Positions 28,664 to 61,899 are shown, counted from the stretch's first letter. The stretch: 64,000 bases of DNA from Steroidobacteraceae bacterium (GCA_036267975.1 DATAVA010000026.1:8482-72481); one strand, 5' to 3'. The notes: generated by a model from the sequence alone, not told the origin. Translations and numbers: made by a program.

Positions 28664-28871
28664 CAGTCAACCTCGAAAAAGCGAGGGCCGCGCCCCTTTT
28701 TCAGGCGCACTCACCCTATTCTTATAGACCGCCGCGGGGGCCGAAAGATCCCTGCCATCGCATCGTGCGCGGCGCCTTGCCCGGTGCGCATCCGCAACGG
28801 TCAGGAGAATTTCCCGAGCAGTATTCGCTACGCTGCGCGCGCCGCTCAGACGGATTAGATGGGGTTTTCCT

Positions 28872-35203: not shown

Positions 35204-35229
35204 AGAGCCTGCATGGCGACGGCGCGTCG

Positions 35230-37701
35230 TTATTCGTCCCTGAACTGATAACTGACGGTCACCCCCACCGTGCGCGGTGTGGACACCACCGCCTGGTAGA
35301 AGCTCGCGTAGTTGAATGGATCGGACCAAGAGCTGATGCCCAGTGTGTCCGTCAGGTTATTGCAGTACGCCGCCAGCATCCAATGGGAAACATCCCAGGT
35401 CAGGCGCGTATCGACGGTGGTGTAGCCGGGCACGGTCGGAATCGTGGCCGAAAGGGCCGGGATCAGCGAGCTTTGATAATGGACACTCAACGAGTAGGCA
35501 AGTTCACCTTGGCCCAACCTGACGTGGCCATAGGTGAGCGTAGCCGCGACGCTGGATTTGGGCGTCGCCGGCAACGGGCCGCCGGGCGCCGGCGGCGGTA
35601 CCGCAAGTCCCGCCAGGGCATCGTCGGCATAGGACAGCAGCTTGGTCTGGTCATAGGTATAGGACAGCTGGGCGCTCAGGCGCGCGGTGATATTGGCGAA
35701 AATATCGGTCTCGATGCCCTTGCTGTAGGCGTGGCCGACATTGATGGCACCGGGCAGCACCAACGGCGTCAGCTGCGCGCCCTCCTGGACATGCTGCCAA
35801 TCGATGTAGAACACATCCGCCGAATAGCGGACCCGGTTGGCAATCGTGCCCTTGAGGCCGACCTCGTAATTGTCGGCGGTGTCCGGTGCGACCTTGTACA
35901 GCGCCGGGTCAGTGGTGTAGTTGACGGCTGGCTCGTTGGGAGGCAGCGCGTTGACACCGCCGCGCCGGAAGCCCTGAGACCAGGTGGCGTACACTAGGTT
36001 GGTGGGATCGAGCTGATAGGACGTGTTCATCTTCCACAGTGCCCGGCGCCAGGTGTCGCTCAAGGAGTTGTTGGCGATTGACTCCGGACCGTCAAACAGC
36101 AGTCCTGTCTGCTGCGACTGAGCCACGGTCTGCTTGAACAGACGCGCGCCACCGGTGACGCTCCACGGATCGAAAATATGCCAGGTGAGTTCTCCGAAGG
36201 TCGCCAAGTCCGTGAATTTGGTTTCGAAGTCGCCGATGTAGGCCTGGTCGAGGACGATGGGGATACCGTCCACATAGTTTGGCGGATTGCCGGGTGTGTA
36301 GGCCGTCTCCCCGATGCCACACTCGGATGGGGTCACGCCATCACCGTTGCTCACACCGTACAGCGGCACGCAGGCGTTGAAGAAATCGTTATAGCCGTGA
36401 TAGAACTCATGCTCCTGAATGTCCGTGGTTTCGTTGCGATAGAACAGACCCGCGATCCAATCGAGCCTGCCGCCGGACTTGGAGGCCAGCCGGATTTCCT
36501 CGGCCCAGGGCTTGTCGTTGAGTTCGTCGTGACCGGTAACCAGAACGCGCGGATTGGCGCCGTACAGGGACGGATAGAATGGGAACGAGGAGTACAGCCC
36601 CGTCAGATCGGAGTTGGCGTGGTTGACGTGCCGTCCCCAGGAGGAGTTCGACGTCAAGGTCGCAAATCCCAGCTCATCATTGAGTGTCAGCGCAATCACA
36701 TCCACCTTGTCCTGCGTGGAGCCGCGCGTGAGATCTGTGGACTGGTAAGTGTCCACGCCGTATTGCGGCGAGGAGTAAGGAAAGCCGCCGGCCGTAGAGT
36801 ACTGGTTGTAGTAGGACAGCTGCGCCTTGAAGGTGTCGGTGGGCTTCCACAGCACGGAGGTACGGGCCGAGCGATAGGTGTACCCATTGGTTCCCTTGGC
36901 AGAGCCTGTCACGGCCGGACTGAACGGGTCGGCGGGGTTTTGGAGAATGGGGGCGCCGCTGGCATCCAGCGCGTACAGATGGGGCTGATCGATGAACCCG
37001 GCATCATTCGTGTAGCTGGCATTTGCCCGTATGGCAAGTGTACTGCTGAGCGGAATATTGATCATTCCGCTGATATCGGCATTCGCCCGATGGGTATGGT
37101 CGGTGTCACTGCCGCCCGTGGAAAACTTCGCGTCAAAGGCTTCCGGATCGGGCGCGTTCTGTACGTAGCGAATCGTGCCGCCCAGCGAGCCCGACCCGTA
37201 CAGCGTGCCTTGCGGACCGCGGAGGATTTCCACGTGATCGAGGTCATCCAGCCGCAGGTTTACATACAACGGGGTGTCGTCGACGTAGGTGGCAACCGGC
37301 GGCACGATGGGCGTGGCCAGTGCCAGCTGCCCGGCCGTGGCCTCGCTGTTGAGGCCGCGGATGATGAGCGTCGAGCCATTGGCATCCCCAAACGGTCCCT
37401 TGTCGGTGTAGTTGATTCCGGCCATCGAACGCGCGAGGGAAGCGACATCCTCGATGCCGGCGGCTTCGAGCTGGTAGCCGCTGACCGCGATGATGCTCAT
37501 CGGCAGTTCCTGAGCCGAAGCCTCGCGGCGTGTCGCCGTGACAGTGACTTCCTGGAGCGTGTCGACCTCGTCCGCCGTCGCCGTGGCGCTGGCCGCGGCA
37601 TCGGTGAGCACATCCGCCGACCAGGCGGCGGTGCCATACACAGCGGTGAGTACTGCGAGCGTGATCGTGCGGGTGGGACGCGTCGGCTTTGAAGTCTTCA
37701 A
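35230..37701 (-). CDS. TonB-dependent receptor (downstream of guanidine-I riboswitch)
   Basis: Start refined to TTG 37701, 7 nt after GAGGAG (MKTSKPTRPTRTITLAVLTAVYGTAAWSA). Plug LQEVTVTATRRE...IIRGLNSE, a long beta-barrel, and it ends VTVSYQFRDE. Confidence 0.88.
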   Translation of the reverse strand: MKTSKPTRPTRTITLAVLTAVYGTAAWSADVLTDAAASATATADEVDTLQEVTVTATRREASAQELPMSIIAVSGYQLEAAGIEDVASLARSMAGINYTDKGPFGDANGSTLIIRGLNSEATAGQLALATPIVPPVATYVDDTPLYVNLRLDDLDHVEILRGPQGTLYGSGSLGGTIRYVQNAPDPEAFDAKFSTGGSDTDHTHRANADISGMINIPLSSTLAIRANASYTNDAGFIDQPHLYALDASGAPILQNPADPFSPAVTGSAKGTNGYTYRSARTSVLWKPTDTFKAQLSYYNQYSTAGGFPYSSPQYGVDTYQSTDLTRGSTQDKVDVIALTLNDELGFATLTSNSSWGRHVNHANSDLTGLYSSFPFYPSLYGANPRVLVTGHDELNDKPWAEEIRLASKSGGRLDWIAGLFYRNETTDIQEHEFYHGYNDFFNACVPLYGVSNGDGVTPSECGIGETAYTPGNPPNYVDGIPIVLDQAYIGDFETKFTDLATFGELTWHIFDPWSVTGGARLFKQTVAQSQQTGLLFDGPESIANNSLSDTWRRALWKMNTSYQLDPTNLVYATWSQGFRRGGVNALPPNEPAVNYTTDPALYKVAPDTADNYEVGLKGTIANRVRYSADVFYIDWQHVQEGAQLTPLVLPGAINVGHAYSKGIETDIFANITARLSAQLSYTYDQTKLLSYADDALAGLAVPPPAPGGPLPATPKSSVAATLTYGHVRLGQGELAYSLSVHYQSSLIPALSATIPTVPGYTTVDTRLTWDVSHWMLAAYCNNLTDTLGISSWSDPFNYASFYQAVVSTPRTVGVTVSYQFRDE

Positions 37702-37803
37702 GATCCATCTCCTCACAAACCTGCATGAACAGGTCTGATTGCGCTGGCCAAATTCGGCCAATTGCGAGGATGTCTTGCGTGTCCCGGAGGTTCTCCTGGT
37801 GCA

Positions 37804-37842
37804 GGAGATCTCTCGGGGCGTCATCCCCGCAGCCAGATCTCC
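37804..37842 (-). promoter_or_regulatory. Candidate expression-platform hairpin of the riboswitch
   Basis: On the minus strand GGAGATCT (37842-37835, the last bases of the aptamer) pairs perfectly with AGATCTCC (37811-37804). There is an inner CGGGG/CCCCG helix and no U-tract. Confidence 0.4.
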
Positions 37843-37945
37843 CGGGCTTTTGTCCCGCCGTGTATCCACCGTCGCAGGAAGATTCCTGGAAGTGGACTGC
37901 CTCTCTCGGACCAGTCGCCTGCAAACAGGCCGGAACCCTAGACGC
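37838..37945 (-). promoter_or_regulatory. Guanidine-I (ykkC/yxkD, subtype 1-like) riboswitch aptamer
   Basis: Minus strand reads GCGTCTAGGGTTCCGGCCTGTTTGCAGGCGACTGGTCCGAGAGAGGCAGTCCACTTCCAGGAATCTTCCTGCGACGGTGGATACACGGCGGGACAAAAGCCCGGGAGA. All conserved ykkC blocks I recall are present in order: CUAGGGUUCCG, GGUCCGAGAG, ACACGG, GGGA, AAAAGCCCGGGAGA. Supporting helices are GCCTG/CAGGC, TCCAC/GTGGA and CAGG/CCTG. Confidence 0.85.
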
Positions 37946-37988
37946 ACATTTCAATGAGGAACCTGCAAGGCACGTGCCTGTCGTGCGA

Positions 37989-38017
37989 ATTATCACGCGC
38001 CTTTCTGCAAATGGCTA
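37989..38017 (-). promoter_or_regulatory. Candidate sigma70 promoter for the riboswitch transcript
   Basis: Minus strand TAGCCA-N17-GATAAT, about 45 nt upstream of the aptamer. Weak -35. Confidence 0.25.
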
Positions 38018-38177
38018 AAAAAGCGGCAGTTGCGGGGATGTGTTGACGCCGCGCCAGACTGCGTTGGCAAAATGGCAGGCCGATTTTGCGCCTGCCATGC
38101 ACCAGCGGCGTGCGACGCCCTAAACTATCGCCCCGCTTAGTAACGATTGTTGCGCCCACACGGGGTATGACCCACGC

Positions 38178-40430: not shown

Positions 40431-41270
40431 TCAGTCCTGGGCCGAGGTGCGCGATAGCTTCTGCAGCAAATCCAGGTCGGTCTTCATGCCCGAGGTGGAT
40501 CGAATGCGCTCCAGAAGCGCCAGCTTCAGTTCCAGGAACACGGTTTGATGTTTCATCGGTTGCGATCGCTCGAGCGCCAGGGGCACCGGATACACCGTAT
40601 CCACGCGCCCGGGACGCGGTGCCATCAGGACCACGCGTCGGCCCAGATAGATTGCCTCCTCAACATCGTGCGTGACAAAGATTACCGTGCACAATTCCAG
40701 CTGCGAGACATGCAGGATCAGGTCATGCATGACCTCACGGGTCTGCGCATCCAATGCGCCGAAGGGCTCATCCATCAGCAGGATCCGCGGCCGGCTCATC
40801 AGGGCACGCGCGATGGCGACGCGTTGCTGCATGCCGCCCGAAAGCTGGTTCGGGTAGGCATCCGCCACTGCGGTCAGTCCCATGACGGCCAGCAGTGCTT
40901 CAGCGCGACCGGCTGCGACCTCGACATCGGCGCTGGTGCGATCGCGAGTGTGGGCAGCGAGCTGCCGTGTGAACTTGATGTTGCCAATCACCGTCAGCCA
41001 CGGGTACAAGCTGTAGTTTTGAAAGACCATGGCGCGATCCACGTCGGGACCGCTGATCGGCGCCCCGTCCACGGTGATTTCGCCGGCGCTCTGAGTTTCG
41101 ATTCCCGCAATCGTACGCAGCAGCGTCGACTTGCCGCATCCCGATGCCCCCACCAATGTGATGAACTCACCCTCTTCGACGCTGAGGTTGATGTCCTGCA
41201 GCGCTGTCAGCGCACGGGGACCGTTCCCGAAGGTCTTCCAGACTCCCTTGCACTGCACTGCAGTCGACAT
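40431..41270 (-). CDS. ABC transporter ATP-binding protein, NitT/TauT family
   Basis: ATG 41270. Walker [10 protein letters not shown], signature [15 protein letters not shown], Walker [13 protein letters not shown]. Confidence 0.9.
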
Positions 41271-41272
41271 GC

Positions 41273-42079
41273 TCAGCTTCGCAGATAAAGCCACGGGAAG
41301 GCCTTGCGGTGCATCAGGCGGAAAGTCTGATCCATGGCCAGTCCGATCAGGCCGATGAGAATGATGCCGCAGAAGATCTTGTCGGTTTGCAGGAAGCGCT
41401 GCGCCTTGATGATCGCGTACCCAAGGCCGGAGTTGGCCGCGACCAGTTCGGCAACGACCAGGTAGGTCCAGGCCCAACCCATCGTGATGCGCAGCGTATC
41501 CACCAGTCCCGGCTTCACTGACGGAATAATCACCAGCTCGATGATCTCCAGGCGCGAGGCGCCCATGGTCTGTGCCGCCTCGATCTGCGCCATCGGCACA
41601 CGCCTGACATCCTCCGCGACCATCAGCACCATCTGGAAGAAGGTACCGATGAAGATGATGCCAATCTTGGCCCCCTCATCGATGCCGATCCAGAGCATCA
41701 CCAGCGGGATGAAGGCCACGGCCGGCATGTAGCGGATGAAATCGGTGAGCGGCTCAAGCAACGCCTGCACGGAACGATAGGTACCAATGAACAGTCCCAA
41801 CGGCAGTGCGATCAGCGCGGACAGCGCCCAGCCTGCGACGACACGCATGGTGCTGATCGCGATATCGGCCAGCAACTCATCGTTGGTGTACCAGGTGCCG
41901 ACGCGTTTCAGCACGCTCAAGGGTCCGGGCAGGAACACCGGATTGACGATGCCGGTGGCGGAGAGGGTGGACCAGCCAATCAAAGGCAGCAGCAGTCCGA
42001 CGGTCGCCAGTATCCAGTAGCGCTGCTGCGTGATGGTGCCCCTGATGGTCCAGAATCCCATGGCACTTGCGCTCCTCAC
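41273..42079 (-). CDS. ABC transporter permease, NitT/TauT family
   Basis: 268 aa, 6 TMS, EAA-like loop AAQTMGASRLEIIELVIIPSVKP. Its start overlaps the SBP stop. Confidence 0.9.
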   Translation of the reverse strand: MRSASAMGFWTIRGTITQQRYWILATVGLLLPLIGWSTLSATGIVNPVFLPGPLSVLKRVGTWYTNDELLADIAISTMRVVAGWALSALIALPLGLFIGTYRSVQALLEPLTDFIRYMPAVAFIPLVMLWIGIDEGAKIGIIFIGTFFQMVLMVAEDVRRVPMAQIEAAQTMGASRLEIIELVIIPSVKPGLVDTLRITMGWAWTYLVVAELVAANSGLGYAIIKAQRFLQTDKIFCGIILIGLIGLAMDQTFRLMHRKAFPWLYLRS

Positions 42080-43056
42080 CGCTTCAATGCAGCGGACAGA
42101 ATCGAGCCGTCCACACCTTTGGCCGGGTCCGGCTTGCCGTCGATCAGTCGATTCGCCAGCAGGAAGGCGGCAATCTGCGGCGCCACGGTGACCAGACTCG
42201 AGGAGCTCGCGGGATTGAACCCATCAAGATTTGCCGCGGCGTCGAAGAAGCGTGTGCCTGGAAGGAAGACCTTGTAGTCGGCCGGATTCATGCCCACCAC
42301 CTTGGACATAATTTTTACCGCGGCGTCGGGATTGTTCTTGATGAAGTTCACGGTGTCTAACCATGCACGTGTCATGCCGATCAGGTCCTGGCGCTTGTTC
42401 CGGATCGCCGACTCCTGTGCGACCAGCAGGTCCGGAATCAGGCCAGCCATGTCACGCGAGGTGAACAGCGCACGTCCCTTGCCGGATTTCTCGATCTGGC
42501 TGATCCAGGGATTCCACACGACCGCGACCTCGACGCGCCCGCTGATGAATGCTGCCGCGGCGTCCCCGGCCGCCAGGTTGACCACGGTGACATCGCGAGG
42601 GGTGAGTCCGTGGCGGGCAAGCGCGGTGTAGAGCACGAAGTGCGACACGCTGAACTGCTCCAGTGCAACTTTCCTGCCCTTCAAGTCCGCAAAGCTGTGG
42701 ATCTTGGGACTGACCATCAGCGCGTCATTACCGAAGGAGTTGTCGTTGATCAGGACGGCCTTGAGCGGCAGCCCCTTCTGCAGCGGCCCGAGCGTGTCGG
42801 ACCAGGTCTGGCTGTTGGCATCCAACTGCCCGGTGGACAGCGCCGCGATTGAATCGCTGTAATTGGCGAACCAGATCAGCTTCACATCGGCGCCGTATTT
42901 CTTGAAATATCCCTGGTTCTCGGCGACGTACCAGGCAACCCAACCGGTCCAATCGGAGACGCCGACCTTGATTTCGGCGGTGGCTGGCGTGGTAAATGCG
43001 GTGAGCAGTGCGACTGCGGCGATGGCGGCCAAGGTGAGGGGAAATCGGCTCTTCAT
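42076..43056 (-). CDS. ABC substrate-binding protein (NMT1/THI5-like, urea-carboxylase-region type)
   Basis: 326 aa with a signal peptide ending ATAEIKVGVSDWTGW. Overlaps the allophanate hydrolase stop (ATGA). Confidence 0.85.
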   Translation of the reverse strand: MKSRFPLTLAAIAAVALLTAFTTPATAEIKVGVSDWTGWVAWYVAENQGYFKKYGADVKLIWFANYSDSIAALSTGQLDANSQTWSDTLGPLQKGLPLKAVLINDNSFGNDALMVSPKIHSFADLKGRKVALEQFSVSHFVLYTALARHGLTPRDVTVVNLAAGDAAAAFISGRVEVAVVWNPWISQIEKSGKGRALFTSRDMAGLIPDLLVAQESAIRNKRQDLIGMTRAWLDTVNFIKNNPDAAVKIMSKVVGMNPADYKVFLPGTRFFDAAANLDGFNPASSSSLVTVAPQIAAFLLANRLIDGKPDPAKGVDGSILSAALKR

Positions 43057-44888
43057 GAGGATGACTCCGGACTTGCGGGCTGAGTTGGGGGGGTTGATGA
43101 CATGGACGCGACATACGCGCGCCAGCCGCCCATCGAGGTGATGTCGCGAGCGCCCTCAATGGCGCGCGGCTCGGCGACGAATCCTTTGACGATGCTCCCG
43201 TCCGCGAGGACGATGCTGCCGATGGCCAGTGGAGCCGGGATTTCGGCGACAAAGCTGCCGAATGCAGCGAGGTCCAGGTCATAGACCTCGACGGCGATGG
43301 CGCTGCCGCCGCCGCGCGTGCCGGTGTGAATGAGGGCCGGTTTCGGTGGTGTCGTGTTGGCCATCGCGTAGAGGCGGTAGGCGGGTGCCGTATGGGTGGC
43401 GCCGACCAGTCGCGCGTGTCGCGAACTGAGCTGCCAGTGCAGCGGCATGCCGGACAGGTGCGCACCGACCACGGCCACCTGCACGCTCAGGGCGCGCGGC
43501 GTCAGATCCAGCGGCGGATTCACAATTGCCGGTGAACTGTTCAGATAGCGTTGCGCAAGATTCAGCAGCGCGCGATCCATGAATGCCTTGCCGACCAGGG
43601 TGATGCCGAAGCCGGTGTGATTGGCGCGGAATCCGGCGGGCACGGCCACGGCGCTCAGATCCATCAGGTTCACGAAATTCGTATACAGCCCGAGGTTGGC
43701 ATTCAGCGTGACGGGCTCGGCCAGCAGTTCACTCACGCGATAGATGGTCGGGGCGGTGGGTAGTACCAGCACATCAATGACGGACCAGAGTGTTTCGGCC
43801 TGGCGCATGAGTGCCTGCAGTTCATGTTGTCCGCGGAATACCTGTACACCGGTAGTCGCTGCGCCCGCGGCAATGATTGCGCGCACTACCGGATGAATCG
43901 CCCCGGATCGCGTGCGCAGGAAATCCTCGATGGCCGCGGTGCGTTCGGCGACCCAGGGTCCGCAGTACAGCAGCTGTGCTGCATTCAACAGCGCTGCGAT
44001 ATCCACTTCCACCGCGGTGCCACCGGCGGCCACCACTCGGGTGAGTGCTTCGCGGTATAGGCGCGAGGATGATTCGTCGCCAAAGAACTGCAGTTGTTCA
44101 GGTCGCGGCACGCCGAAATGGAAGGCGGGCCCCAGCATGGGCGGCGCCAGCGGATGACGTGCGTACGGGTCCGCGGCGTCAAAGCCTGCGACGACTTCAT
44201 CGACCATCGCCGCATCGTCCACATTTGCAGCGAGTACCGTGATGCAGTCTAAGGAGCGACACGCCGGCACCAGCCCCTGAGTGCTCCAGCGACCCCGGGT
44301 CGGCTTAAATCCGATCAGGCCATTGAATGCCGCCGGAACCCGCCCTGAACCGGCGGTGTCGGTGCCCAGGGCGAAGACCACCAGGCCGGCAGCGACGGCG
44401 ACGGCGGAGCCGGAACTGGATCCGCCGCTGATGAATTCGCGGTTGAATACGCAGCGCGGTGCGCCGTACGGGCTGCGCGTGCCCGCCAGGCCCGTTGCGA
44501 ACTGGTCCAGATTGGTCTTGCCAAGACACACCGCGCCGGCCGCCAGCAGGCGTTGCACCGTGGTGCTCGAGCGCTGCGCAGCATAGGCGAAGCCCGGGCA
44601 GGCCGCGCTGGTCGGCATGCCCTCGACATCGATATTGTCCTTTACCGCAAACGGCACCCCCGCCAGCGACAGTCGCTCTCCGCTGGCCACGCGGGCATCC
44701 ACCTCATGCGCCTGCTGCAGCACATCGCTGTCGCCGGCACGGTGGATAAAGATTTCCGGCTGAACGGGTGCGTACGCGGCGACGCGCAGCAGAGTCTGCG
44801 CCGCGATGTCGACAGCCTTGACGCGGCCGGCGTTGACGTCAGCGCTGATTTGAGCCACTCCCCACTGCAGCCGCGCATCGCCGGTCAT
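43053..44888 (-). CDS. atzF: Allophanate hydrolase
   Basis: Start refined to ATG 44888, overlapping the carboxylase TGA. Amidase signature GGSSSGSAVAVAAG plus a C-terminal AH extension. 611 aa. Confidence 0.9.
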   Translation of the reverse strand: MTGDARLQWGVAQISADVNAGRVKAVDIAAQTLLRVAAYAPVQPEIFIHRAGDSDVLQQAHEVDARVASGERLSLAGVPFAVKDNIDVEGMPTSAACPGFAYAAQRSSTTVQRLLAAGAVCLGKTNLDQFATGLAGTRSPYGAPRCVFNREFISGGSSSGSAVAVAAGLVVFALGTDTAGSGRVPAAFNGLIGFKPTRGRWSTQGLVPACRSLDCITVLAANVDDAAMVDEVVAGFDAADPYARHPLAPPMLGPAFHFGVPRPEQLQFFGDESSSRLYREALTRVVAAGGTAVEVDIAALLNAAQLLYCGPWVAERTAAIEDFLRTRSGAIHPVVRAIIAAGAATTGVQVFRGQHELQALMRQAETLWSVIDVLVLPTAPTIYRVSELLAEPVTLNANLGLYTNFVNLMDLSAVAVPAGFRANHTGFGITLVGKAFMDRALLNLAQRYLNSSPAIVNPPLDLTPRALSVQVAVVGAHLSGMPLHWQLSSRHARLVGATHTAPAYRLYAMANTTPPKPALIHTGTRGGGSAIAVEVYDLDLAAFGSFVAEIPAPLAIGSIVLADGSIVKGFVAEPRAIEGARDITSMGGWRAYVASMSSTPPTQPASPESSS

Positions 44889-47800
44889 ACCTCGTGCCCT
44901 TGCGTTTCCAGCGCGATGATGGCCGCGCCCGGATTGATGGCCTGTCGCGGTTGCACATACACCGCCCGCACAATGCCGGCCTGCGGGGCCGGCACATCGC
45001 ATTCCATCTTCATCGCTTCGATGACAGCAATTACCGTGCCGCGTGCAACCCGGTCCCCGGGCCGCACGTTGACCTTCCAGACATTGCCACCCAATGGGGC
45101 TTCGAGTACCTCGCTGCCGGCTGGGATCACGGAGGTGATCGCAGCCACATCGGCAGGTTCCTGCAGCAGTTTCTCGACCCGGGAGAACTCCTTGTCGCGC
45201 ACCCAGGCTTCGCGCTCGGCCTCGAATGCGGCCTGTCGCTGCGTCTGGAAAGTCTCGATGGCCGGTGCGTTCGCCGCCAGGAAAAGGCGATAGGCGGCGA
45301 GGCTGAAGGTCGCCGATTCGATACGGACATCGCGGCGGCCGAGGGGAAAGTCGCGGCGCCATTCCGTCAGCTCCGCATGGCTGACGGGAAAGAAACGGAT
45401 CTGGTCGAAGAACCGCAGCAGCCACGGCTTATCTTCGGTGAAGGCCTTGGTCTGTTGCCAGGTGTTCCACATCTGCACGGTGCGCCCGAAGAGCTGGTAG
45501 CCCCCGGGGCCCTCCATCCCGTAGATGCACAGGTAGGCGCCGCCGATTCCCACCACGTTCGGTGGCGTCCAGGTGCGCGCCGGGTTGTACTTGGTCGTCA
45601 CCAGCCGATGACGCGGGTCGAGAGGGGTGGCCACGGGCGCGCCGAGGTAAACATCGCCCAGTCCCATGACCAGGTAGCGTGCGTCAAAGACGATGTCGCG
45701 CACGGCATTGATCGACGGCAGTCCATTTATGCGGCGGATGAATTCGATGTTATCCGGGCACCAAGGCGCGTCACTGCGGACGCTGGCCATATACTTTTCG
45801 ATGGTTGCGTAAATCGCCGGGTCGCCCCAGGACAATGGCAGATGAATGACCCGTGAGGGGATGCTGAACTCAGTGAGGTCACCGATCCGATCCTCGGCAT
45901 CCGCGAGCGCGGCAAGCAAGGCGTCCTGAGTCAGCACGCGGCTGTCGAAGTGCACCTGCAAGGAGCGCACGCCGGGGGTGATGTCGATGACACCGGGCAG
46001 GGCACGACGCTGCAGCTCGAGCATCAGGGCATGGATCCGAATTCGCAGTGTCAGATCCAACATCAAGGGGCCGTACTCCACCAGGATGTGGCGGTCGCCC
46101 TGACGCCGATACACCACCTGGGGGCGCTGGCTGCGCGCCGCAATAGTGTCCAGGACGGGACTGTGCTGCGGCTTTCCACGCGCTGCGCTGGATGGGAGTG
46201 GCGGCGGCGGATCGCCGAACAGCGCTTCCATCGAATCCTCCGCGGCGCGTGCCTGCGTGTCGCTGACGATCTCGAAGCTGAGGCTGTCACCCGGGGCCAG
46301 CTGCCCCACCTTCCACAAATCGGCCTGGATTACGACCAGAGGGCATACGAATCCGCCCAGCGAGGGGCCGTCAGGTCCCAGGATGATGGGCATGTCGCCG
46401 GTGAAGTCGATCGTCCCGATGGCGTAGGCGTTGTCGTGAATGTTCGAGGGATGCAGTCCCGCCTCGCCACCATCGCGCCGCGCCCAGCGCGGGCGCGGCC
46501 CGATCAGGCGCACGCCGGTGCGGCTGGAGTTGTAGTGCACCTTCCAAGGCACACTGCTCAGCATGTCGATATCTTCGGGGGCGAAGAAGTCCGGTGCCCC
46601 GTGCGGACCGTACAATACCCGCAGCACCCACGCATGCGTGAGCCGCGGCGGGGAAATCGCAAGGGCATTGGCGGTGGTGGCAACGGGGCGCGGCTCACAC
46701 AGCCGCAGCACGTCACCGGCAACGAGCGTGCGACCGGCGTGTCCGCCAAATCGGCCCAGCGTAAAGGTGGAGCGGCTGCCGAGGTACACGGGCACATCGA
46801 TGCCTCCCGCAAGCAGCAGGTACGCGCGCATGCCGGCGCCACGGATGCGGCCCAGCTTCAGGGTCTGGCCGGCGCGAATCCGGACTGGCCGGAAGGCATC
46901 GATGGCGGCACCGTCGACGGATGCTTCGAGGGCGGCCCCCGTCACGCAAATGCGTGTGTCACGCCGGAACAGCAGCACCGGACCGTGCAACGTGATCTCC
47001 AGTCCCGCCGCATCCGGTGGATTGCCCAGCAGCTGGTTTCCGATGCGAAAGCTCAACGCATCCATCGGACCGCTGGGCGGTACGCCGACGTCCCAGTAAC
47101 CGCGGCGTCCAGGATGGTCCTGCACCGTCGTCGCAAGGCCGCCGCTTTGCACGCGTATCGTCTGCGGCTGGAACTGGATCGACTGTGCCATCGCGGTGAA
47201 GAGCTGACCGCTGACGAAGGCCTCGCTGCGCGCGGCCTGCCGCAGCCATTCGAGATTGGTCTCCAGTCCCTGCAAAGCAGTATGGTCCAGCGCCGTTTGC
47301 ATGGCACGCACGGCGCTGTCCCGGTCGCGCGCGGTGACAATGAGCTTGGCCAGCAGCGGGTCGTAGCAGGCGCTGACCTCGCTGCCGTCGGTCACCCAGG
47401 TCTCCACCCGCACATTCGGTGCGAACTTCACTTGGGACAGAACGCCGCTGCAGGGGCGGAAATCCTGGTCTGGGTCCTCGGCATAAATACGTGCCTGGAT
47501 CGAGGCGCCAACGCTGGCATCCTTCCAGGTGTCCAGAAAATCTAGCTCGCCCGCGGCGCCGCGAACCATCCATTCAACGAGGTCCACGCCGGTGACCTGC
47601 TCCGTGACTCCGTGCTCGACTTGCAGTCGGGTATTCACCTCGAGGAAGAAGAACTGATCGCGCTCGGGGTCGTACAGGAACTCCACGGTTCCTGCTGAGA
47701 GATAGTGCGCCGCACGACCCAGACGCAGGGCCGCATCGCGCAGGCTGGCGCGCGTGGCAGCGGGAAGATGCGGCGCAGGCGCTTCCTCCATCAGCTTCTG

Positions 47801-48502
47801 GTTGCGGCGCTGCAAGGAGCAGTCACGCTCGCCCAGCGCGACGACCCGACCGGCCCCGTCGCCGAAAATCTGCACTTCGATATGGCGCGCGCGCGGTACA
47901 AAGCGCTCCAGATAGACTCCGCCATTCGCAAAATTGCTGCCCGCGAGACGCTCGATGGAAGCGAATGCCTCGCGCACTGTGGCGGCGTTTTCGCAGGTAC
48001 GCATGCCGATACCCCCGCCGCCGGCGGTGGCCTTGAGCATGACCGGATAGCCCACCCGCTCAGCCGCATGAACCGCGGTATGCTCATCGCCAAGCAGGTC
48101 ACTGCCCGCCATGAGTGGCAGGCCCGCCTGCTGCGCGATCTGGCGAGCGGTGTGCTTGAGGCCAAAGGCACGGATATTCTCCGGCGTAGGTCCGATGAAA
48201 GTGAGGCCAGCCTGCGCGCAGCGTTCGGCGAACTGCGCGTTCTCGCTCAGAAAGCCATAACCCGGGTGAATGGCAGTGGCGCCGGTGCTGCGGGCGGCCG
48301 CGATGATGGCATCCATGTGCAGATAGCTCTGTGCGGCAGGTGCAGGCCCGATACGCACGGCCGCGTCGGCCTCGCGAACATGCAGCGAGCCTAAGTCCGC
48401 GTCCGAGTACACCGCGACCGAATCTATCCCCAAGCGGCGCAGGGTGCGAATGATGCGGCACGCAATCGCGCCACGATTGGCGATCAGGACCTTGTTGAAC
48501 AT
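44885..48502 (-). CDS. uca: Urea carboxylase-type biotin enzyme (likely guanidine carboxylase)
   Basis: 1205 aa. Biotin carboxylase N-terminus MFNKVLIANRGAIACRIIRT, KipI/KipA-like carboxyltransferase middle region, biotinyl motif EAMKME. Confidence 0.92.
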   Translation of the reverse strand: MFNKVLIANRGAIACRIIRTLRRLGIDSVAVYSDADLGSLHVREADAAVRIGPAPAAQSYLHMDAIIAAARSTGATAIHPGYGFLSENAQFAERCAQAGLTFIGPTPENIRAFGLKHTARQIAQQAGLPLMAGSDLLGDEHTAVHAAERVGYPVMLKATAGGGGIGMRTCENAATVREAFASIERLAGSNFANGGVYLERFVPRARHIEVQIFGDGAGRVVALGERDCSLQRRNQKLMEEAPAPHLPAATRASLRDAALRLGRAAHYLSAGTVEFLYDPERDQFFFLEVNTRLQVEHGVTEQVTGVDLVEWMVRGAAGELDFLDTWKDASVGASIQARIYAEDPDQDFRPCSGVLSQVKFAPNVRVETWVTDGSEVSACYDPLLAKLIVTARDRDSAVRAMQTALDHTALQGLETNLEWLRQAARSEAFVSGQLFTAMAQSIQFQPQTIRVQSGGLATTVQDHPGRRGYWDVGVPPSGPMDALSFRIGNQLLGNPPDAAGLEITLHGPVLLFRRDTRICVTGAALEASVDGAAIDAFRPVRIRAGQTLKLGRIRGAGMRAYLLLAGGIDVPVYLGSRSTFTLGRFGGHAGRTLVAGDVLRLCEPRPVATTANALAISPPRLTHAWVLRVLYGPHGAPDFFAPEDIDMLSSVPWKVHYNSSRTGVRLIGPRPRWARRDGGEAGLHPSNIHDNAYAIGTIDFTGDMPIILGPDGPSLGGFVCPLVVIQADLWKVGQLAPGDSLSFEIVSDTQARAAEDSMEALFGDPPPPLPSSAARGKPQHSPVLDTIAARSQRPQVVYRRQGDRHILVEYGPLMLDLTLRIRIHALMLELQRRALPGVIDITPGVRSLQVHFDSRVLTQDALLAALADAEDRIGDLTEFSIPSRVIHLPLSWGDPAIYATIEKYMASVRSDAPWCPDNIEFIRRINGLPSINAVRDIVFDARYLVMGLGDVYLGAPVATPLDPRHRLVTTKYNPARTWTPPNVVGIGGAYLCIYGMEGPGGYQLFGRTVQMWNTWQQTKAFTEDKPWLLRFFDQIRFFPVSHAELTEWRRDFPLGRRDVRIESATFSLAAYRLFLAANAPAIETFQTQRQAAFEAEREAWVRDKEFSRVEKLLQEPADVAAITSVIPAGSEVLEAPLGGNVWKVNVRPGDRVARGTVIAVIEAMKMECDVPAPQAGIVRAVYVQPRQAINPGAAIIALETQGHEV

Positions 48503-49131
48503 CAGATATGTCCGGCGATCACCATGCGCAGGGCCGTGGGATTAAAACCATTGCAGGGGTTGTTGATCTGGGGGCAGTTGGAAACCACGGCCGTCAGATC
48601 CATCTGCGCCCTCAGGTCCACGTGCAGCCCCGGGGCGGATATGCCGTCGACGATACCCAAGGTCCCGTCGGCTTCGATTGGTACATTCATGAACCAGTTG
48701 ATGTTGGACACCATGTCGCGCTTGCCCCGCCCGTAGCGCAGATTGGCGGCGAGAAAATTTTCGACACATGCGTGCTGCGACTGGGTATGGAAGCCGTAAC
48801 GCAAGGTATTGCTCTCGCAGCTGCACGCTCCACCGATGGTGTCGTGATGGTCGACATCGGTGCCTGCGATCAGCGCCATGGGATTACCTTCATTCGAATA
48901 CAGCATCGAGCCTTGGCGCAGGTACACATTGTGCTGCGCCGCGATGGTCTCCTGTGCGCTGTAGCGCTCGGCGTCATCCGCTGTCGCATACATCAGGAAG
49001 TCGGCGGATTGATTGCCCTGCAGATCAATGATGCGCAGGGTTTGCCCTTTGCGCACCCGATGTGACCACGGCGCCCGCGATGGCACGATCTGATCCAGGA
49101 TGATCGGCCCCAATCCGGCCAGCGCATTCAT
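48502..49131 (-). CDS. Urea-carboxylase-associated DUF1989 protein 2 (carboxyguanidine deiminase subunit type)
   Basis: ATG 49131 lies behind GAGGTG. 209 aa, paralogous to 49139..49960. Its stop overlaps the carboxylase ATG by 1 nt. Confidence 0.85.
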   Translation of the reverse strand: MNALAGLGPIILDQIVPSRAPWSHRVRKGQTLRIIDLQGNQSADFLMYATADDAERYSAQETIAAQHNVYLRQGSMLYSNEGNPMALIAGTDVDHHDTIGGACSCESNTLRYGFHTQSQHACVENFLAANLRYGRGKRDMVSNINWFMNVPIEADGTLGIVDGISAPGLHVDLRAQMDLTAVVSNCPQINNPCNGFNPTALRMVIAGHI

Positions 49132-49138
49132 AATCACC

Positions 49139-49960
49139 TCACCGGGCAAAATAATCTTCAACGTTCAGAAAAGCCCGTAAGCCCTCCGGGGTCGCGTTGC
49201 GAAGCGGATCCTCCGCCGGCGTCGGCTCACCCCGCCAGGCGCTCATCCGGACCGGCGTCACCGTGTAATCGGCGCGCGCATCGAGTCGATGGGGACAGTT
49301 CGCCATCACGACAAAGACATTCATTTCGGCCCGAAGCGTCAGCGTGCGGCCCGGCGCGCAAGGGCCCGAGGCAAACTCGGTGGAGCCATCCGCGGTAATC
49401 CGAACGGCCTTGAACCAGTTGATGCAGGGATGAATGTCCCTGCGCCCCAGCCCGAATTTGCTGACCGCGAGGGCGAAGCGGTCGCGGGCGTTGGGATGGG
49501 CGCCCCAGCTATCCCCATCTCCGTACCTTGCGGCATTGGAGTGCACCGTCGAGGCACCGCAAAAGCAATCGTGGGTGCCGGCGCCATCTTCAATGACACT
49601 CATCAGCACGCGGCCCATATCCGAGAGCAGCAAGTGGCCCGCTCCCAGGTAGGCGTTCCACTGGACTTTGATGGTGTCCGCAACGTTCAAGCGTTCAACC
49701 GGGCGCTCCGCGTTGAAAACGAGCATGGAGACGCAGGCGTCGCCGAGCACGTCCTGCAGCTGCAGGCGTGCCCCGCGCCAAAGTTCCTTGCTGGCGTAGC
49801 CGCCCGCGCCCAGTGTCGTTTCCCACAGCATGCTGCTCGCGGGCACTCCCGGTGGCCGCGATGCTGCGACACCGGCTGGCAAGGTGGGCATAGCCGCTAC
49901 CCGAATGTCGCCCATGGCCCGGGCGTGCGCCCGGGCGCTGTGAGGGTCGGCCGTGCTCAC
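49139..49960 (-). CDS. Urea-carboxylase-associated DUF1989 protein 1 (carboxyguanidine deiminase subunit type)
   Basis: 273-aa ORF. Its GTG start overlaps the TGA of the NikR-like gene. Blocks such as NCPH/INWF are shared with 48502..49131. Confidence 0.85.
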   Translation of the reverse strand: MSTADPHSARAHARAMGDIRVAAMPTLPAGVAASRPPGVPASSMLWETTLGAGGYASKELWRGARLQLQDVLGDACVSMLVFNAERPVERLNVADTIKVQWNAYLGAGHLLLSDMGRVLMSVIEDGAGTHDCFCGASTVHSNAARYGDGDSWGAHPNARDRFALAVSKFGLGRRDIHPCINWFKAVRITADGSTEFASGPCAPGRTLTLRAEMNVFVVMANCPHRLDARADYTVTPVRMSAWRGEPTPAEDPLRNATPEGLRAFLNVEDYFAR

Positions 49961-50445
49961 CGTGCACCTCGAATAGAACGTGGCGCGGGACTTGCGGGCT
50001 GCTCGGCGCCATGCGAATGCAGTGGTGGCAGCAACGCGGTGGTGGTGACCAGTTTGATTTGCTGTACGCCGCGTACCGTGCGCAGGGCATCACATAGCGA
50101 ATGCAGGCGCACCGCCGGACCTTGCACCAGCAGCACCTCCAGTGACTGGTCGTCCTCGAGCAGGACGTGCTGCGAGGAGATCACTTCCTTGACGTAGGCG
50201 GTTTGGGTGTTGGCTAGCGCATGCCGCACCCGGCCGCTCTCGGCCTTGTAGATCAAAGTGAGGGTGCCGGCGAGTACCGCGTCATCGCGACTCTCGCTGT
50301 GCTCAGCCAATTCGTGACGAATCAGCTCAGCGATCATCTGGGAGCGGCTTGGGAGGGCGCGCTCGGCGACCATGTCATCCAGCTGCGTGAGCAGTTCAGC
50401 CGGCAGGCTGATACTCAAACGTGCAAGTTGCGGCAGTACGTCCAC
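49957..50445 (-). CDS. NikR-fold ribbon-helix-helix regulator (CopG/NikR family)
   Basis: 162 aa. RHH LSISLPAELLTQLDDMVAERALPSRSQMIAELIR followed by an ACT-like C-terminal domain that aligns to NikR_C. Confidence 0.8.
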   Translation of the reverse strand: MDVLPQLARLSISLPAELLTQLDDMVAERALPSRSQMIAELIRHELAEHSESRDDAVLAGTLTLIYKAESGRVRHALANTQTAYVKEVISSQHVLLEDDQSLEVLLVQGPAVRLHSLCDALRTVRGVQQIKLVTTTALLPPLHSHGAEQPASPAPRSIRGAR

Positions 50446-50459
50446 TAGGGCAGCCCCGT

Positions 50460-50489
50460 AGTATTACTAAAATTGAGTTTAGTAATACT
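50460..50489. promoter_or_regulatory. Perfect 12-6-12 inverted repeat, NikR-operator-like (GTATTA-N16-TAATAC)
   Basis: AGTATTACTAAA-ATTGAG-TTTAGTAATACT. An AT-rich island in GC-rich DNA, 15 to 44 bp upstream of the regulator start codon. Confidence 0.7.
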
Positions 50490-50609
50490 CCAGGAGGGTG
50501 CGCCCCTGTCAAGCGAGTGCGCGAAGATGGTGCAGGTTAGCCGCAGGCGCGCCACGCAAGTGCGCCTGCGTCCCGATGCGCCGCGCGTGAGCGGCGCCGC
50601 TTGCGGGTA

Positions 50610-61865: not shown

Positions 61866-61899
61866 GGACAAGCAGCCCCGGCTGGTATACTGCAGCCGT

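What the first reader, a model, noticed from the sequence alone, without database searches (positions are those of the whole stretch)
35230..37945. Guanidine-I (ykkC) riboswitch placed in front of a TonB-dependent outer-membrane receptor
**What the sequence shows**
- The minus strand 37945 to 37838 carries every block I remember as near-invariant in ykkC subtype-1 aptamers, in the right order: CUAGGGUUCCG, GGUCCGAGAG, ACACGG, GGGA, AAAAGCCCGGGAGA.
- The intervening helices are well formed.
- The only gene downstream on that strand is a TonB-dependent receptor starting about 135 nt later at TTG 37701. It is monocistronic, because its downstream neighbour is convergent.

**Why it is unusual**
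- Described ykkC regulons are guanidine carboxylase operons, NitT/TauT ABC importers and Gdx/SugE-type exporters. I am not aware of TonB-dependent receptors among them.
- Free guanidine is small enough for porins, so an energised receptor under guanidine control needs an explanation.
- One possibility is high-affinity scavenging of guanidine as a nitrogen source. Another is uptake of a larger guanidino compound whose breakdown releases guanidine.
- The classical riboswitch target, the carboxylase operon at 40431..50445, is only about 3 kb away on the same strand but has no aptamer.
Basis: partly seen in the sequence, partly recalled or inferred. Interest (0 to 1): 0.85.

Follow-up and report, generated by a model that had tools for sequence, protein, structure and literature searches.

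The report
Guanidine riboswitch controlling an outer-membrane receptor
A genuine guanidine-sensing RNA switch, apparently transcribed from a nitrogen-starvation-type promoter, sits in front of an energy-driven outer-membrane import receptor in soil Steroidobacteraceae, which points to a previously undescribed outer-membrane step in bacterial use of guanidine as a nitrogen source.

Summary
Window 37952-37837 (-) is a full-length guanidine-I aptamer (Rfam RF00442, 87.1 bits, threshold 63) with the subtype-1 adenosine marker and no ppGpp or PRPP match. A TonB-dependent receptor starts 135 nt downstream (TTG 37701) and stands alone.

The pairing is not a one-off. In 33 of 77 orthologous receptor loci from Steroidobacteraceae genomes and soil metagenomes, the aptamer lies on the same strand just upstream. 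This holds in all 19 orthologs at 69% identity or above and in a second clade at 59-60%.

- Every aptamer is preceded by a sigma-54 -24/-12 element (27 of 27 distinct loci plus the window). An NtrC-like palindrome lies about 130-150 nt further upstream.
- A conserved leader couples the aptamer tail to the ribosome-binding site through mutually exclusive helices. Modelling predicts a translational ON switch.
- The receptor recurs next to the guanidine carboxylase and ABC-importer genes.

No searchable paper links guanidine riboswitches to TonB-dependent receptors. The substrate is unresolved: guanidine itself or a compound that yields it. This is a new variant of a known system and is directly testable.

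The parts
38098..38114 (-). NtrC-like palindrome CGCACGCCGCTGGTGCA, a candidate enhancer (UAS) for a sigma-54 activator
   Evidence: It matches TGCACCA-N3-TGGTGCA (consensus from my own knowledge) at 11 of 14 positions. An equivalent site scoring at least 11/14 sits 131-153 nt upstream of the -12 element in 23 of 28 distinct aptamer loci. Shuffled regions reach that score in 24 of 1550 cases.
37965..37978 (-). Sigma-54 type -24/-12 promoter element GGCACGTGCCTTGC
   Evidence: GGCA(C/T)(G/A)-N4-TTGC is present in 27 of 27 distinct aptamer-upstream regions and in the window. It ends 12-17 nt before the aptamer. The background is 43 hits in 1.52 Mb, most of them these same sites. The N4 spacer varies while the GG and GC elements are fixed.
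37837..37952 (-). Guanidine-I (ykkC subtype 1) aptamer
   Evidence: RF00442, 87.1 bits against a gathering score of 63. Across 31 distinct receptor-linked copies, 96.7% of cells are paired and 12 pairs show compensatory double changes, against 1-4 in slid controls. The A46-equivalent position is adenosine.
37835..37843 (-). Box A: aptamer 3' tail GGGAGAUCU, which can pair with box B instead
   Evidence: The A:B duplex has mean z = -4.3 against shuffles and is significant in 26 of 26 leaders.
37814..37831 (-). Hairpin 1: box X (UGCGGGGAU, SD-like) and box X' (CGCCCCG)
   Evidence: X:X' has mean z = -2.0. X is also complementary to the anti-SD box (X:anti-SD mean z = -3.6). X and the anti-SD box change together between clades: UGCGGGGAG with CUCCCCGCA against GUCGAGGAG with CUCCUCGAC.
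37802..37811 (-). Box B AGAUCUCCUG, which pairs with box A or box C
37783..37798 (-). Box C CAGGAGAACCUCCGGG, which forms hairpin 2 with box B
   Evidence: B:C has mean z = -1.8 and appears in the MFE structures.
37763..37771 (-). Anti-SD box AUCCUCGCA, which pairs with the SD region or with box X
   Evidence: Anti-SD:SD has mean z = -2.3. Locking the aptamer tail moves the anti-SD box from the SD (6.6 to 3.9 expected bp) to X (0.8 to 4.1 bp), with p = 3e-6 and 3e-7.
37716..37761 (-). Two spacer hairpins (hp3 37761-37744, hp4 37737-37716) enclosed by the anti-SD:SD helix
   Evidence: They form in all MFE predictions. Compensatory changes are visible in alignment A4, for example GGCCG/CGGCC against GGCUG/CAGCC.
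37699..37714 (-). Shine-Dalgarno GAGGAG (37714-37709) and TTG start codon (37701-37699)
   Evidence: TTG and GTG alternate at the same alignment column.
35230..37701 (-). TonB-dependent receptor, 823 aa, monocistronic
   Evidence: Pfam Plug and TonB_dep_Rec_b-barrel domains. No NCBIfam equivalog reaches its cutoff. A conserved TonB-box-like LQEVxVTATRR motif is present. More than 3000 homologs, mostly in Steroidobacteraceae MAGs.
40431..50445 (-). Neighbouring guanidine assimilation operon: NikR-like regulator, CgdA/B (UAAP1/2), carboxylase, allophanate hydrolase, SsuA-type SBP, permease and ATPase. It shares the pathway but is not under the riboswitch here.
   Evidence: No RNA element. In relatives the same genes lie directly upstream of the aptamer and receptor, or carry their own sigma-54 promoter and aptamer (L025).

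Best explanation
This is a functional guanidine-I riboswitch that gates a TonB-dependent outer-membrane receptor belonging to the guanidine-assimilation regulon of Steroidobacteraceae.

Transcription (inferred from sequence motifs): it starts at a sigma-54 promoter (-24/-12 at 37978-37965), activated from an NtrC-like enhancer site (38114-38098), probably under nitrogen limitation. The RNA begins almost exactly at the aptamer.

Translation (inferred from conserved complementarity and folding models): the 135-nt leader then decides whether the receptor is made.
- Without guanidine, the aptamer's 3' tail pairs with box B on top of hairpin 1, and the anti-SD box sequesters the ribosome-binding site.
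- With guanidine bound, the tail is held in the aptamer, B pairs with C, the SD-like box X captures the anti-SD box, and the ribosome-binding site is freed.
- This makes it a translational ON switch, probably under kinetic control.

Overall logic: an AND gate, nitrogen hunger AND cytoplasmic guanidine.

Role of the receptor (inferred from synteny): it is the outer-membrane entry step feeding the SsuA-type periplasmic binding protein and ABC importer, then the carboxylase, CgdAB and allophanate hydrolase pathway. Its substrate is most likely guanidine itself at scarce concentrations, or else a closely related guanidino compound.

Status of each step:
- Shown by tools: aptamer identity and conservation of the aptamer-receptor pairing.
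- Inferred: the promoter and enhancer, the switch mechanism and direction, and the substrate.
For: - Aptamer: RF00442 at 87.1 bits against 63, full length, with no subtype-2 family hit. The fold is kept with 12 compensatory pairs across receptor-linked copies. The A46 marker is adenosine (criterion from PMC6031431).
- Association: 5 of 6 genome loci and 33 of 77 informative loci overall carry the aptamer on the same strand, 115-340 nt before the receptor start. This covers all 19 orthologs at 69% identity or above and the basal members of a 59-60% clade.
- Promoter: sigma-54 motif in 27 of 27 distinct loci plus the window. NtrC-like site in 23 of 28, against 1.5% of shuffles.
- Platform: conserved alternative helices. 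Locking the tail shifts the anti-SD box from the SD to X (p about 1e-6) and raises SD-core accessibility from 0.27 to 0.35 (p = 0.019; 13 up, 4 down). In the window, forcing A:B makes anti-SD:SD form on its own.
- Pathway link: guanidine ABC, carboxylase and allophanate hydrolase genes lie next to the receptor in the window clade, and immediately upstream of the aptamer in the second clade. L025 has a second sigma-54 promoter and aptamer before cgdAB.
- Literature: known guanidine-I switches are ON switches and specific for guanidine, and guanidine importers are unstudied (PMC12508155).
Against: - There is no experimental data for ligand binding, transcription start, sigma-54 or NtrC dependence, or receptor substrate.
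- The window's own leader is thermodynamically ON in both states. The OFF fold is 3.5 kcal/mol less stable, so switching must rely on co-transcriptional kinetics.
- In several distant leaders (L026, L049, L006, L084) the model predicts the SD stays sequestered in both states.
- 44 orthologous loci lack the aptamer, so it is dispensable for the receptor family.
- Guanidine (59 Da) should cross porins, and no TonB-dependent receptor for so small an organic cation is known.
- In 8 aptamer loci the receptor is co-transcribed with an ArgE-like deacylase, and other loci hold hydrolases and monooxygenases, which hints at a larger substrate.
- The NtrC consensus is recalled from memory, and the activator could be a different enhancer-binding protein.
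Confidence: 0.6

Rival explanations
1. The receptor imports a larger nitrogen-rich or guanidino compound rather than guanidine. Cytoplasmic or periplasmic enzymes release guanidine from it, and that guanidine then acts as a product inducer (positive feedback) through the riboswitch.
For: - In 8 of 32 aptamer loci an ArgE-like M20 deacylase (NF005710, 505 bits) follows the receptor by 17-26 nt on the same strand. In 8 loci a CN-hydrolase lies just upstream of the aptamer. HpaB-like monooxygenase, RidA, DUF1028 and an NCS1 permease recur nearby.
- Precedents: guanidine-riboswitch operons encode methylguanidine-to-guanidine enzymes (PMC12508155), and an NCS1 transporter takes up the guanidino drug metformin (PMC13390362).
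- TonB-dependent receptors normally carry substrates too large or too scarce for porins.
Against: - In the window and its closest relatives the receptor is monocistronic and lies beside the guanidine ABC and carboxylase genes, not beside hydrolases.
- In the second clade it directly follows the guanidine-type ABC genes.
- No known guanidine-releasing enzyme family (guanylurea hydrolase, EFE, MgdH/MgdL) was identified in the loci.
- The enzyme partners differ between lineages, so no single pathway is defined.
Confidence: 0.3
2. The riboswitch acts mainly on transcript elongation or stability (Rho-dependent termination or RNase access) rather than directly on ribosome binding.
For: - The leader is long (135 nt) and untranslated, so it is a potential Rho entry site when translation is blocked.
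- Translational control and Rho termination are known to be coupled in riboswitches (cited in PMC12508155).
- The modelled changes in SD accessibility are modest.
Against: - No intrinsic terminator is found anywhere in 35000-38300 (0 found, 1.9 expected in shuffles).
- The conserved anti-SD:SD complementarity, and X mimicking the SD, point to the ribosome-binding site as the controlled element.
- Rho effects would be secondary to SD masking rather than an alternative to it.
Confidence: 0.2
3. It is an OFF switch: guanidine binding represses the receptor to limit entry of a toxic chaotrope.
For: - The chain of alternative helices (A-B-C / anti-SD-SD) could in principle be read with the opposite parity.
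- The window's leader is predicted to be open without ligand.
Against: - The C:anti-SD pairing needed for that parity is not supported (mean z = -0.7).
- Ensemble modelling across 26 leaders shifts toward an open SD when the tail is locked.
- All described guanidine-I switches are ON switches (PMC6031431; PMC12508155).
- Co-location with assimilation genes and a nitrogen-type promoter argues for induction.
Confidence: 0.07
4. The receptor imports nickel or another metal cofactor needed for guanidine breakdown, as suggested by the NikR-like gene nearby.
For: - A NikR-family regulator heads the adjacent operon.
- A Ni-dependent guanidine hydrolase exists in other bacteria (cited in PMC12186494).
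Against: - The local pathway is the biotin carboxylase route, and no guanidine hydrolase is present.
- The NikR-like protein scores below the NCBIfam cutoffs (99 against 105). Aligned to P. horikoshii NikR, it replaces three of the four high-affinity Ni ligands as I recall them (H78T, H91L, C97S).
- No NCBIfam metal-receptor equivalog matches the receptor.
Confidence: 0.03
5. The aptamer is an evolutionary leftover from a rearranged carboxylase operon and has no regulatory role for the receptor.
For: - The canonical target operon lies 2.5 kb away without an aptamer.
- Many orthologs lack the aptamer.
Against: - The aptamer core is invariant, and stems covary across receptors that have diverged to 59% identity.
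- The promoter, the aptamer, the platform boxes and the spacing to the SD are all conserved together.
Confidence: 0.02

Closest known systems
Guanidine-I riboswitches (ykkC subtype 1, RF00442) controlling guanidine carboxylase operons, NitT/TauT-type ABC importers and Gdx/SugE exporters
   Same: - Same aptamer class, with all conserved nucleotides and the subtype-1 marker.
- Predicted ON logic.
- Same metabolic neighbourhood: carboxylase, CgdAB, allophanate hydrolase and an SsuA-type ABC importer.
   Different: - The controlled gene is a TonB-dependent outer-membrane receptor, a gene class not listed among described targets.
- The platform is a long SD-sequestering relay rather than the usual intrinsic terminator.
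- It is driven by a sigma-54 promoter.
Cobalamin riboswitch with BtuB, and TPP riboswitches with TonB-dependent receptors
   Same: - A riboswitch in the 5' leader of a TonB-dependent receptor gene, acting at the ribosome-binding site.
- The receptor works with a periplasmic binding protein and an ABC importer.
   Different: - Those are OFF switches (end-product repression) for large cofactors.
- This one is predicted to be an ON switch induced by a 59-Da nutrient or its precursor.
NtrC/sigma-54-controlled nitrogen-scavenging transport systems
   Same: - A -24/-12 promoter with an upstream palindromic enhancer site at about -130 to -150.
- The function is consistent with scavenging an alternative nitrogen source.
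   Different: - A substrate-sensing riboswitch is layered directly behind the sigma-54 promoter.
- I found no description of this combination for guanidine.
- The identity of the activator is untested.
Vreelandella boliviensis guanidine operon with MgdH/MgdL (PMC12508155)
   Same: A guanidine riboswitch regulon extended beyond the core pathway to handle guanidine-related compounds, used for nitrogen assimilation.
   Different: The extension here is an outer-membrane transporter (plus, in some lineages, unrelated hydrolases), not a dioxygenase and lyase pair.

Membership tests
Guanidine-I riboswitch (RF00442, ykkC subtype 1) | Covariance-model score at or above Rfam's gathering threshold over the full model | tested here: met
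   87.1 bits against 63, model positions 1-107 of 107. Orthologous copies score 84-90 bits.
Guanidine-I riboswitch (RF00442, ykkC subtype 1) | P1/P1a/P1b/P2/P3 architecture maintained by compensatory changes | tested here: met
   96.7% of cells paired. 12 pairs have changes on both sides, against 1-4 in slid controls, and 0 of 500 shuffles reach the observed values.
Guanidine-I riboswitch (RF00442, ykkC subtype 1) | Adenosine at the A46-equivalent pocket position (a pyrimidine in ppGpp and PRPP variants) | tested here: met
   GGUCCGAGAG is invariant in the window and in 5 Rfam-verified orthologs. The criterion comes from PMC6031431.
Guanidine-I riboswitch (RF00442, ykkC subtype 1) | No P0 helix between the 5' and 3' ends, and no match to subtype-2 families | tested here: met
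   No other family appears in a scan at E <= 10. The 5' GAAAUGU and 3' GAGAUCUGG tails are not complementary (by inspection).
Guanidine-I riboswitch (RF00442, ykkC subtype 1) | Binds guanidinium selectively | not testable with these tools
   Needs in-line probing or ITC.
Guanidine-I riboswitch (RF00442, ykkC subtype 1) | Ligand-dependent expression platform (ON switch) | tested here: inconclusive
   Conserved mutually exclusive helices, and an ensemble shift toward an open SD across 26 leaders. However, the window's own leader is predicted ON in both states.
TonB-dependent receptor | N-terminal plug domain and C-terminal beta-barrel domain | tested here: met
   PF07715 (E = 2e-13) and PF00593 (E = 5e-33).
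TonB-dependent receptor | Signal peptide and TonB box near the mature N-terminus | tested here: met
   The N-terminus reads MKTSKPTRPTRTITLAVLTAVYGTAAWSA. LQEVTVTATRR has invariant L49 E51 V54 T55 A56 R58 R59 in 18 homologs. Both were judged by inspection.
TonB-dependent receptor | 22-stranded barrel enclosing the plug in 3D | tested here: inconclusive
   The AlphaFold2 model has mean pLDDT 53. Barrel strands are visible, but the plug (residues 1-183) is below 50. No fold search was run.
TonB-dependent receptor | Assignment to a substrate-specific subfamily | tested here: not met
   No NCBIfam equivalog or subfamily reaches its cutoff; the best is TonB-siderophor at 115.8 against 223.5. PDB sequence hits cover only the plug region.
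Sigma-54 dependent promoter | GG at -24 and GC at -12 in TGGCACG-N4-TTGCW with exact spacing, placed just upstream of the transcript | tested here: met
   GGCACGTGCCTTGC at 37978-37965. The motif is conserved in 27 of 27 distinct loci, 12-17 nt before the aptamer.
Sigma-54 dependent promoter | Upstream enhancer site for a bacterial enhancer-binding protein | tested here: met
   An NtrC-like palindrome scoring at least 11/14 occurs in 23 of 28 loci at -131 to -153, against 1.5% of shuffles. Which activator binds it was not tested.
Sigma-54 dependent promoter | Dependence on rpoN, and a mapped transcription start | not testable with these tools
   Needs genetics, 5' RACE or dRNA-seq.

The most novel reading that the evidence does not exclude
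This receptor family is the first TonB-dependent transporter dedicated to free guanidine, the smallest organic substrate known for the class. It would complete a full envelope-spanning, high-affinity guanidine scavenging system: TonB-dependent receptor, SsuA-type binding protein, ABC importer and carboxylase pathway. Its synthesis would be gated by an RNA-protein AND gate, with sigma-54 and an NtrC-type activator sensing nitrogen hunger and the guanidine-I riboswitch sensing guanidine.
Probability: 0.35. Interest if true: 0.85.

Novelty: new variant of a known kind. Interest (0 to 1): 0.72.

Why it matters
Guanidine has only recently been recognised as a widespread nitrogen source, and a 2025 paper states that its importers have not been studied (PMC12508155).

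- **A missing step:** a riboswitch-marked outer-membrane receptor gives a concrete candidate for how Gram-negative soil bacteria capture guanidine, or a precursor of it, at trace concentrations. It would also extend the substrate range of TonB-dependent transport.
- **Regulatory logic:** a substrate-sensing riboswitch placed directly behind a sigma-54, NtrC-type promoter is a compact two-input gate, and it can be tested with simple reporter fusions.
- **RNA mechanism:** the multi-helix relay platform, with its SD mimic and anti-SD box, is a natural example of long-range riboswitch signal transfer and comes with ready-made covariation data.
- **Annotation:** these receptors are currently labelled 'iron complex outer membrane receptor'. 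The riboswitch provides a functional handle for re-annotating them.

Tried and rejected
- **Sigma-70 promoter:** the scan proposed TAGCCA-17-GATAAT at 38017-37989. It is not conserved in the closest orthologs, so I dropped it in favour of the sigma-54 element.
- **Intrinsic terminator in the leader:** none found.
- **Other RNA classes in aptamer-less loci:** 19 orthologous loci gave only tRNAs in Rfam.
- **Hidden aptamer before the carboxylase operon:** none, even at E <= 10.
- **Column-based covariation of the platform on MAFFT alignment A4:** abandoned, because helix registers shift by 1-2 columns between clades. I replaced it with per-sequence duplex energies and shuffles.
- **Plain RBS accessibility on full leaders:** only a weak signal. 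Partner-specific base-pair probabilities were more informative.
- **Receptor structure:** the AlphaFold2 model was too poor (pLDDT 53), so no fold search was run. The PDB sequence search gave only generic plug similarity.
- **c8 neighbour:** a confident tandem beta-barrel model (pLDDT 91) whose only structural match is an uncharacterised yeast protein (3rby). No functional clue.
- **Founding papers:** Nelson 2017, Breaker 2017 and Meyer 2011 are not held. The absence of TonB-dependent receptors from their gene lists rests on reviews and full-text searches.
- **Nickel-uptake idea:** rejected.
- **One script** timed out and was rerun.


Full report
**1. Observation**

Rfam cmscan of the whole window gives two hits above gathering score. 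One is a cobalamin riboswitch at 61896-62084 (+). The other is Guanidine-I (RF00442) at 37952-37837 (-), scoring 87.1 bits against a gathering score of 63, with E = 3e-14 and the full model matched. A permissive scan of 37500-38300 (E <= 10) returns no PRPP, ppGpp or other ykkC-related family.

The published marker separating guanidine-I from the ppGpp and PRPP variants is an adenosine at A46 rather than a pyrimidine; those variants also have a P0 helix (PMC6031431). Here the segment reads GGUCCGAGAG and is invariant in the orthologs. The 5' and 3' tails are not complementary.

The downstream ORF is a TonB-dependent receptor with Plug and barrel domains. It has a signal peptide and a conserved TonB-box-like LQEVxVTATRR motif. 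It starts at TTG 37701 behind GAGGAG. The next gene (34172-35203, +) is convergent with a 26-nt gap.

**2. Source and neighbourhood**

The flanking proteins are 100% identical to NCBI entries VHW25_07330 and VHW25_07340 of a Steroidobacteraceae MAG.

On the same strand, 2.5 kb upstream, lies the complete guanidine carboxylase pathway:
- a NikR-like regulator (49957-50445)
- UAAP1/UAAP2, which are the carboxyguanidine deiminase CgdAB according to the literature cited in PMC12186494
- urea/guanidine carboxylase
- allophanate hydrolase
- an SsuA-type binding protein, a permease and an ATPase

Next come a TPR-sulfotransferase (39009-40427) and a divergent gene of unknown function (38178-38996).

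**3. Is the pairing conserved?**

A genome scan with the receptor protein found six Steroidobacteraceae or gammaproteobacterial MAG loci. Five carry RF00442 upstream at 84-90 bits, including orthologs of only 60-65% identity.

A metagenome scan with an 18-member receptor alignment returned 80 further loci at 58-90% identity, chosen without regard to the RNA. A covariance model built from the six Rfam-verified aptamers found an aptamer in 33 loci. It was always on the receptor's strand, 115-340 nt before the estimated start. Another 44 loci with enough upstream sequence lack it, and 9 are uninformative.

All 19 orthologs at 69% identity or above that have upstream sequence carry the aptamer. 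At 58-68% identity, 14 do and 44 do not.

A neighbour-joining tree shows three clades:
- The window clade carries the aptamer in all members. Its sister subclade has mostly lost it.
- A 59-60% clade has aptamer-bearing basal members and a nested subclade that lost it.
- A 61-63% clade has none.

The aptamer-less loci contain no other Rfam element. Across the 31 distinct receptor-linked aptamers, 96.7% of pair cells are canonical. Twelve pairs show changes on both sides, against 1-4 in slid controls. The aptamer is therefore under selection in this context.

**4. Promoter**

Aligning the sequence upstream of the aptamers revealed GGCACG-N4-TTGCA in every case. A regex for GGCA[CT][GA]-N4-TTGC hits 27 of 27 distinct upstream regions and the window (37978-37965). 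The motif ends 12-17 nt before the aptamer model start. The whole 1.52 Mb of held sequence (both strands) contains only 43 hits, most of them these sites.

This is the sigma-54 -24/-12 consensus, as established knowledge. It implies a transcription start essentially at the aptamer's first nucleotides. The sigma-70-like hit from the generic scan is not conserved.

A palindrome matches the NtrC consensus as I recall it (TGCACCA-N3-TGGTGCA) at 11 or more of 14 positions. It lies 131-153 nt upstream of the -12 element in 23 of 28 distinct loci, against 24 of 1550 shuffled regions. In the window it is at 38114-38098.

Similar palindromes occur upstream of 21 of 41 aptamer-less orthologs, in the subclades that lost the aptamer. 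The 61-63% clade instead has a TetR gene next to the receptor. Nitrogen-type control therefore looks ancestral for much of the family, with the riboswitch as an added input.

**5. Expression platform**

No intrinsic terminator exists in 35000-38300. The 135-nt leader has a conserved box order:
- aptamer tail A (GGGAGAUCU)
- X (SD-like) and X', which together form hairpin 1
- B (AGAUCUCC), complementary to A
- C, which forms hairpin 2 with B
- the anti-SD box
- one or two spacer hairpins
- the SD (GAGGAGA)
- the start codon

Best-duplex energies against shuffles for 26 leaders:

| Pairing | Mean z | Note |
|---|---|---|
| A:B | -4.3 | significant in 26 of 26 |
| X:anti-SD | -3.6 | |
| Anti-SD:SD | -2.3 | |
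| X:X' | -2.0 | |
| B:C | -1.8 | |
| Control combinations | +0.1 to -1.2 | |

X and the anti-SD box change together between clades: UGCGGGGAG with CUCCCCGCA against GUCGAGGAG with CUCCUCGAC. That is three double substitutions.

Partition-function modelling gives the expected number of base pairs between boxes:

| Pairing | Tail available | Tail removed (bound mimic) |
|---|---|---|
| A:B | 5.1 | - |
| X:X' | 5.3 | 2.3 |
| X:anti-SD | 0.8 | 4.1 |
| Anti-SD:SD | 6.6 | 3.9 |

The X:anti-SD and anti-SD:SD shifts have Wilcoxon p = 3e-7 and 3e-6. SD-core accessibility rises from 0.27 to 0.35 (p = 0.019).

The model is therefore an ON switch acting on translation. It has caveats:
- The window's own leader has a stronger B:C hairpin and is predicted open in both states.
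- Forcing A:B does make anti-SD:SD form, but that fold is 3.5 kcal/mol above the MFE. The OFF state would then have to be a co-transcriptional trap, since A, X, X' and B are made before C and the anti-SD box.
- Some distant leaders are predicted closed in both states.

**6. What does the receptor carry?**

No NCBIfam subfamily or PDB relative indicates a substrate, and the AlphaFold2 model was too poor to use.

*Context favouring guanidine itself:*
- The guanidine ABC and carboxylase genes flank the receptor in the window clade.
- In the 59-60% clade the order is carboxylase, allophanate hydrolase, SBP, permease, ATPase, [sigma-54 promoter and aptamer], receptor, TPR-sulfotransferase, second SBP.
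- In L025 both the receptor and cgdAB have their own sigma-54 promoter and aptamer.
- Guanidine-I aptamers discriminate against methylguanidine (PMC12508155).

*Context favouring a larger precursor:*
- An ArgE-like M20 deacylase lies 17-26 nt downstream of the receptor in 8 aptamer loci.
- A CN-hydrolase lies immediately upstream of the aptamer in 8 loci.
- HpaB-like monooxygenase, RidA, DUF1028 and NCS1 permease genes recur nearby.
- There is precedent in guanidine-riboswitch operons that convert methylguanidine and in an NCS1 metformin importer.

I rate guanidine itself at about 0.35-0.4, a guanidine-yielding compound at about 0.3, and leave the rest open.

**7. Comparison with the known**

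The RNA is a regular member of the guanidine-I class. Three things differ from what has been described:
- **The target.** Described targets are carboxylases, NitT/TauT ABC importers, Gdx/SMR exporters and a few enzymes. Full-text searches for guanidine or ykkC together with TonB found nothing relevant. The major guanidine papers contain no mention of TonB-dependent receptors. One of them states that no studies address guanidine importers.
- **The platform.** It is a multi-helix SD relay rather than a terminator.
- **The promoter.** It is sigma-54 with an NtrC-like enhancer. I found no paper on this combination.

The closest analogues by architecture are the cobalamin/BtuB and TPP/receptor riboswitches, but those are OFF switches for large cofactors.

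**8. Verdict**

The finding is real and conserved, and to the extent I could search it is undescribed. It is best classed as a new variant of a known kind. The mechanism and the substrate are inferences that simple experiments can test.

Noticed in passing
window 49957-50530 (-): The guanidine carboxylase operon begins with a NikR-family (ribbon-helix-helix) regulator gene. It follows a TTGACA promoter overlapped by the perfect palindrome GTATTACTAAA-N6-TTTAGTAATAC. Aligned to P. horikoshii NikR, the protein replaces three of the four high-affinity nickel ligands as I recall them (H78T, H91L, C97S). It may sense something other than nickel and may stand in for the missing riboswitch.
   Followed up: partly
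window 45027-45040 (-); L006 442; L059 193: A second sigma-54-like motif (GGCACGGTAATTGC) lies inside the 3' end of the carboxylase gene, just ahead of the allophanate hydrolase gene. It recurs at the equivalent place in two related loci, which suggests an internal nitrogen-regulated promoter.
   Followed up: no
window 38178-38996 (+): This divergent neighbour of the riboswitch is a 272-aa protein largely restricted to Steroidobacteraceae, with no Pfam family. AlphaFold2 gives a confident tandem beta-barrel (pLDDT 91), whose only structural relative is uncharacterised yeast YLR301w (3rby). It accompanies the receptor throughout the window clade, and one homolog is fused to a cupin domain.
   Followed up: partly
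window 39009-40427 (-); L060, L072, L076, L083, L085: A TPR-sulfotransferase (PF13469) is repeatedly linked to the module. In the 59-60% clade it follows the receptor by -4 to 21 nt, then a second SsuA-type binding protein and a fatty-acid-desaturase-like protein. Its role in a guanidine uptake locus is unexplained.
   Followed up: no
L012, L014, L015, L017/L002, L018, L026, L027 (downstream of the receptor): In these aptamer-bearing loci an ArgE-like M20 deacylase is apparently co-transcribed with the receptor. It is often followed by HpaB-like monooxygenase, RidA and DUF1028 genes. A CN-hydrolase often sits just before the aptamer. Together these may form a catabolic pathway under guanidine control.
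   Followed up: partly
L077, L062, L067, L086, L058, L059, L063, L057, L064 (upstream of the receptor): The subclade that lost the aptamer has a 520-630 nt AT-rich intergenic region with conserved palindromes TGCACCAAC-N3-GTGCA (NtrC-like) and other conserved boxes. Protein-based control appears to have replaced the riboswitch.
   Followed up: partly
L037, L040, L046, L055, L061 and related loci: The 61-63% receptor clade never has the aptamer. It has a TetR-family gene immediately upstream and a divergent NCS1 (cytosine/purine/allantoin-type) permease, a different regulatory and inner-membrane partner set for a related receptor.
   Followed up: no
L025 8371-8509 (+): A second guanidine-I aptamer with its own sigma-54 motif precedes cgdA/cgdB. 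It lies 2 kb downstream of the aptamer-controlled receptor in the same contig.
   Followed up: yes
window 37990-38060 (-): A conserved T-rich stretch (…GCAACTGCYGCWTTTTYAGCC…TTTGC…) lies between the NtrC-like site and the -24 element. It is possibly a DNA-bending or IHF-type site. A weak sub-threshold isrK-like hit (15 bits) overlaps it.
   Followed up: no
window 61896-62084 (+): A cobalamin riboswitch (RF00174, 121 bits) lies elsewhere in the window.
   Followed up: no
window 27302-31259: A second, unrelated TonB-dependent receptor (28872-31259, +) lies beside a secreted protein with cytochrome-c-like CXXCH motifs and a chitobiase C-terminal domain (27302-28663, -).
   Followed up: no
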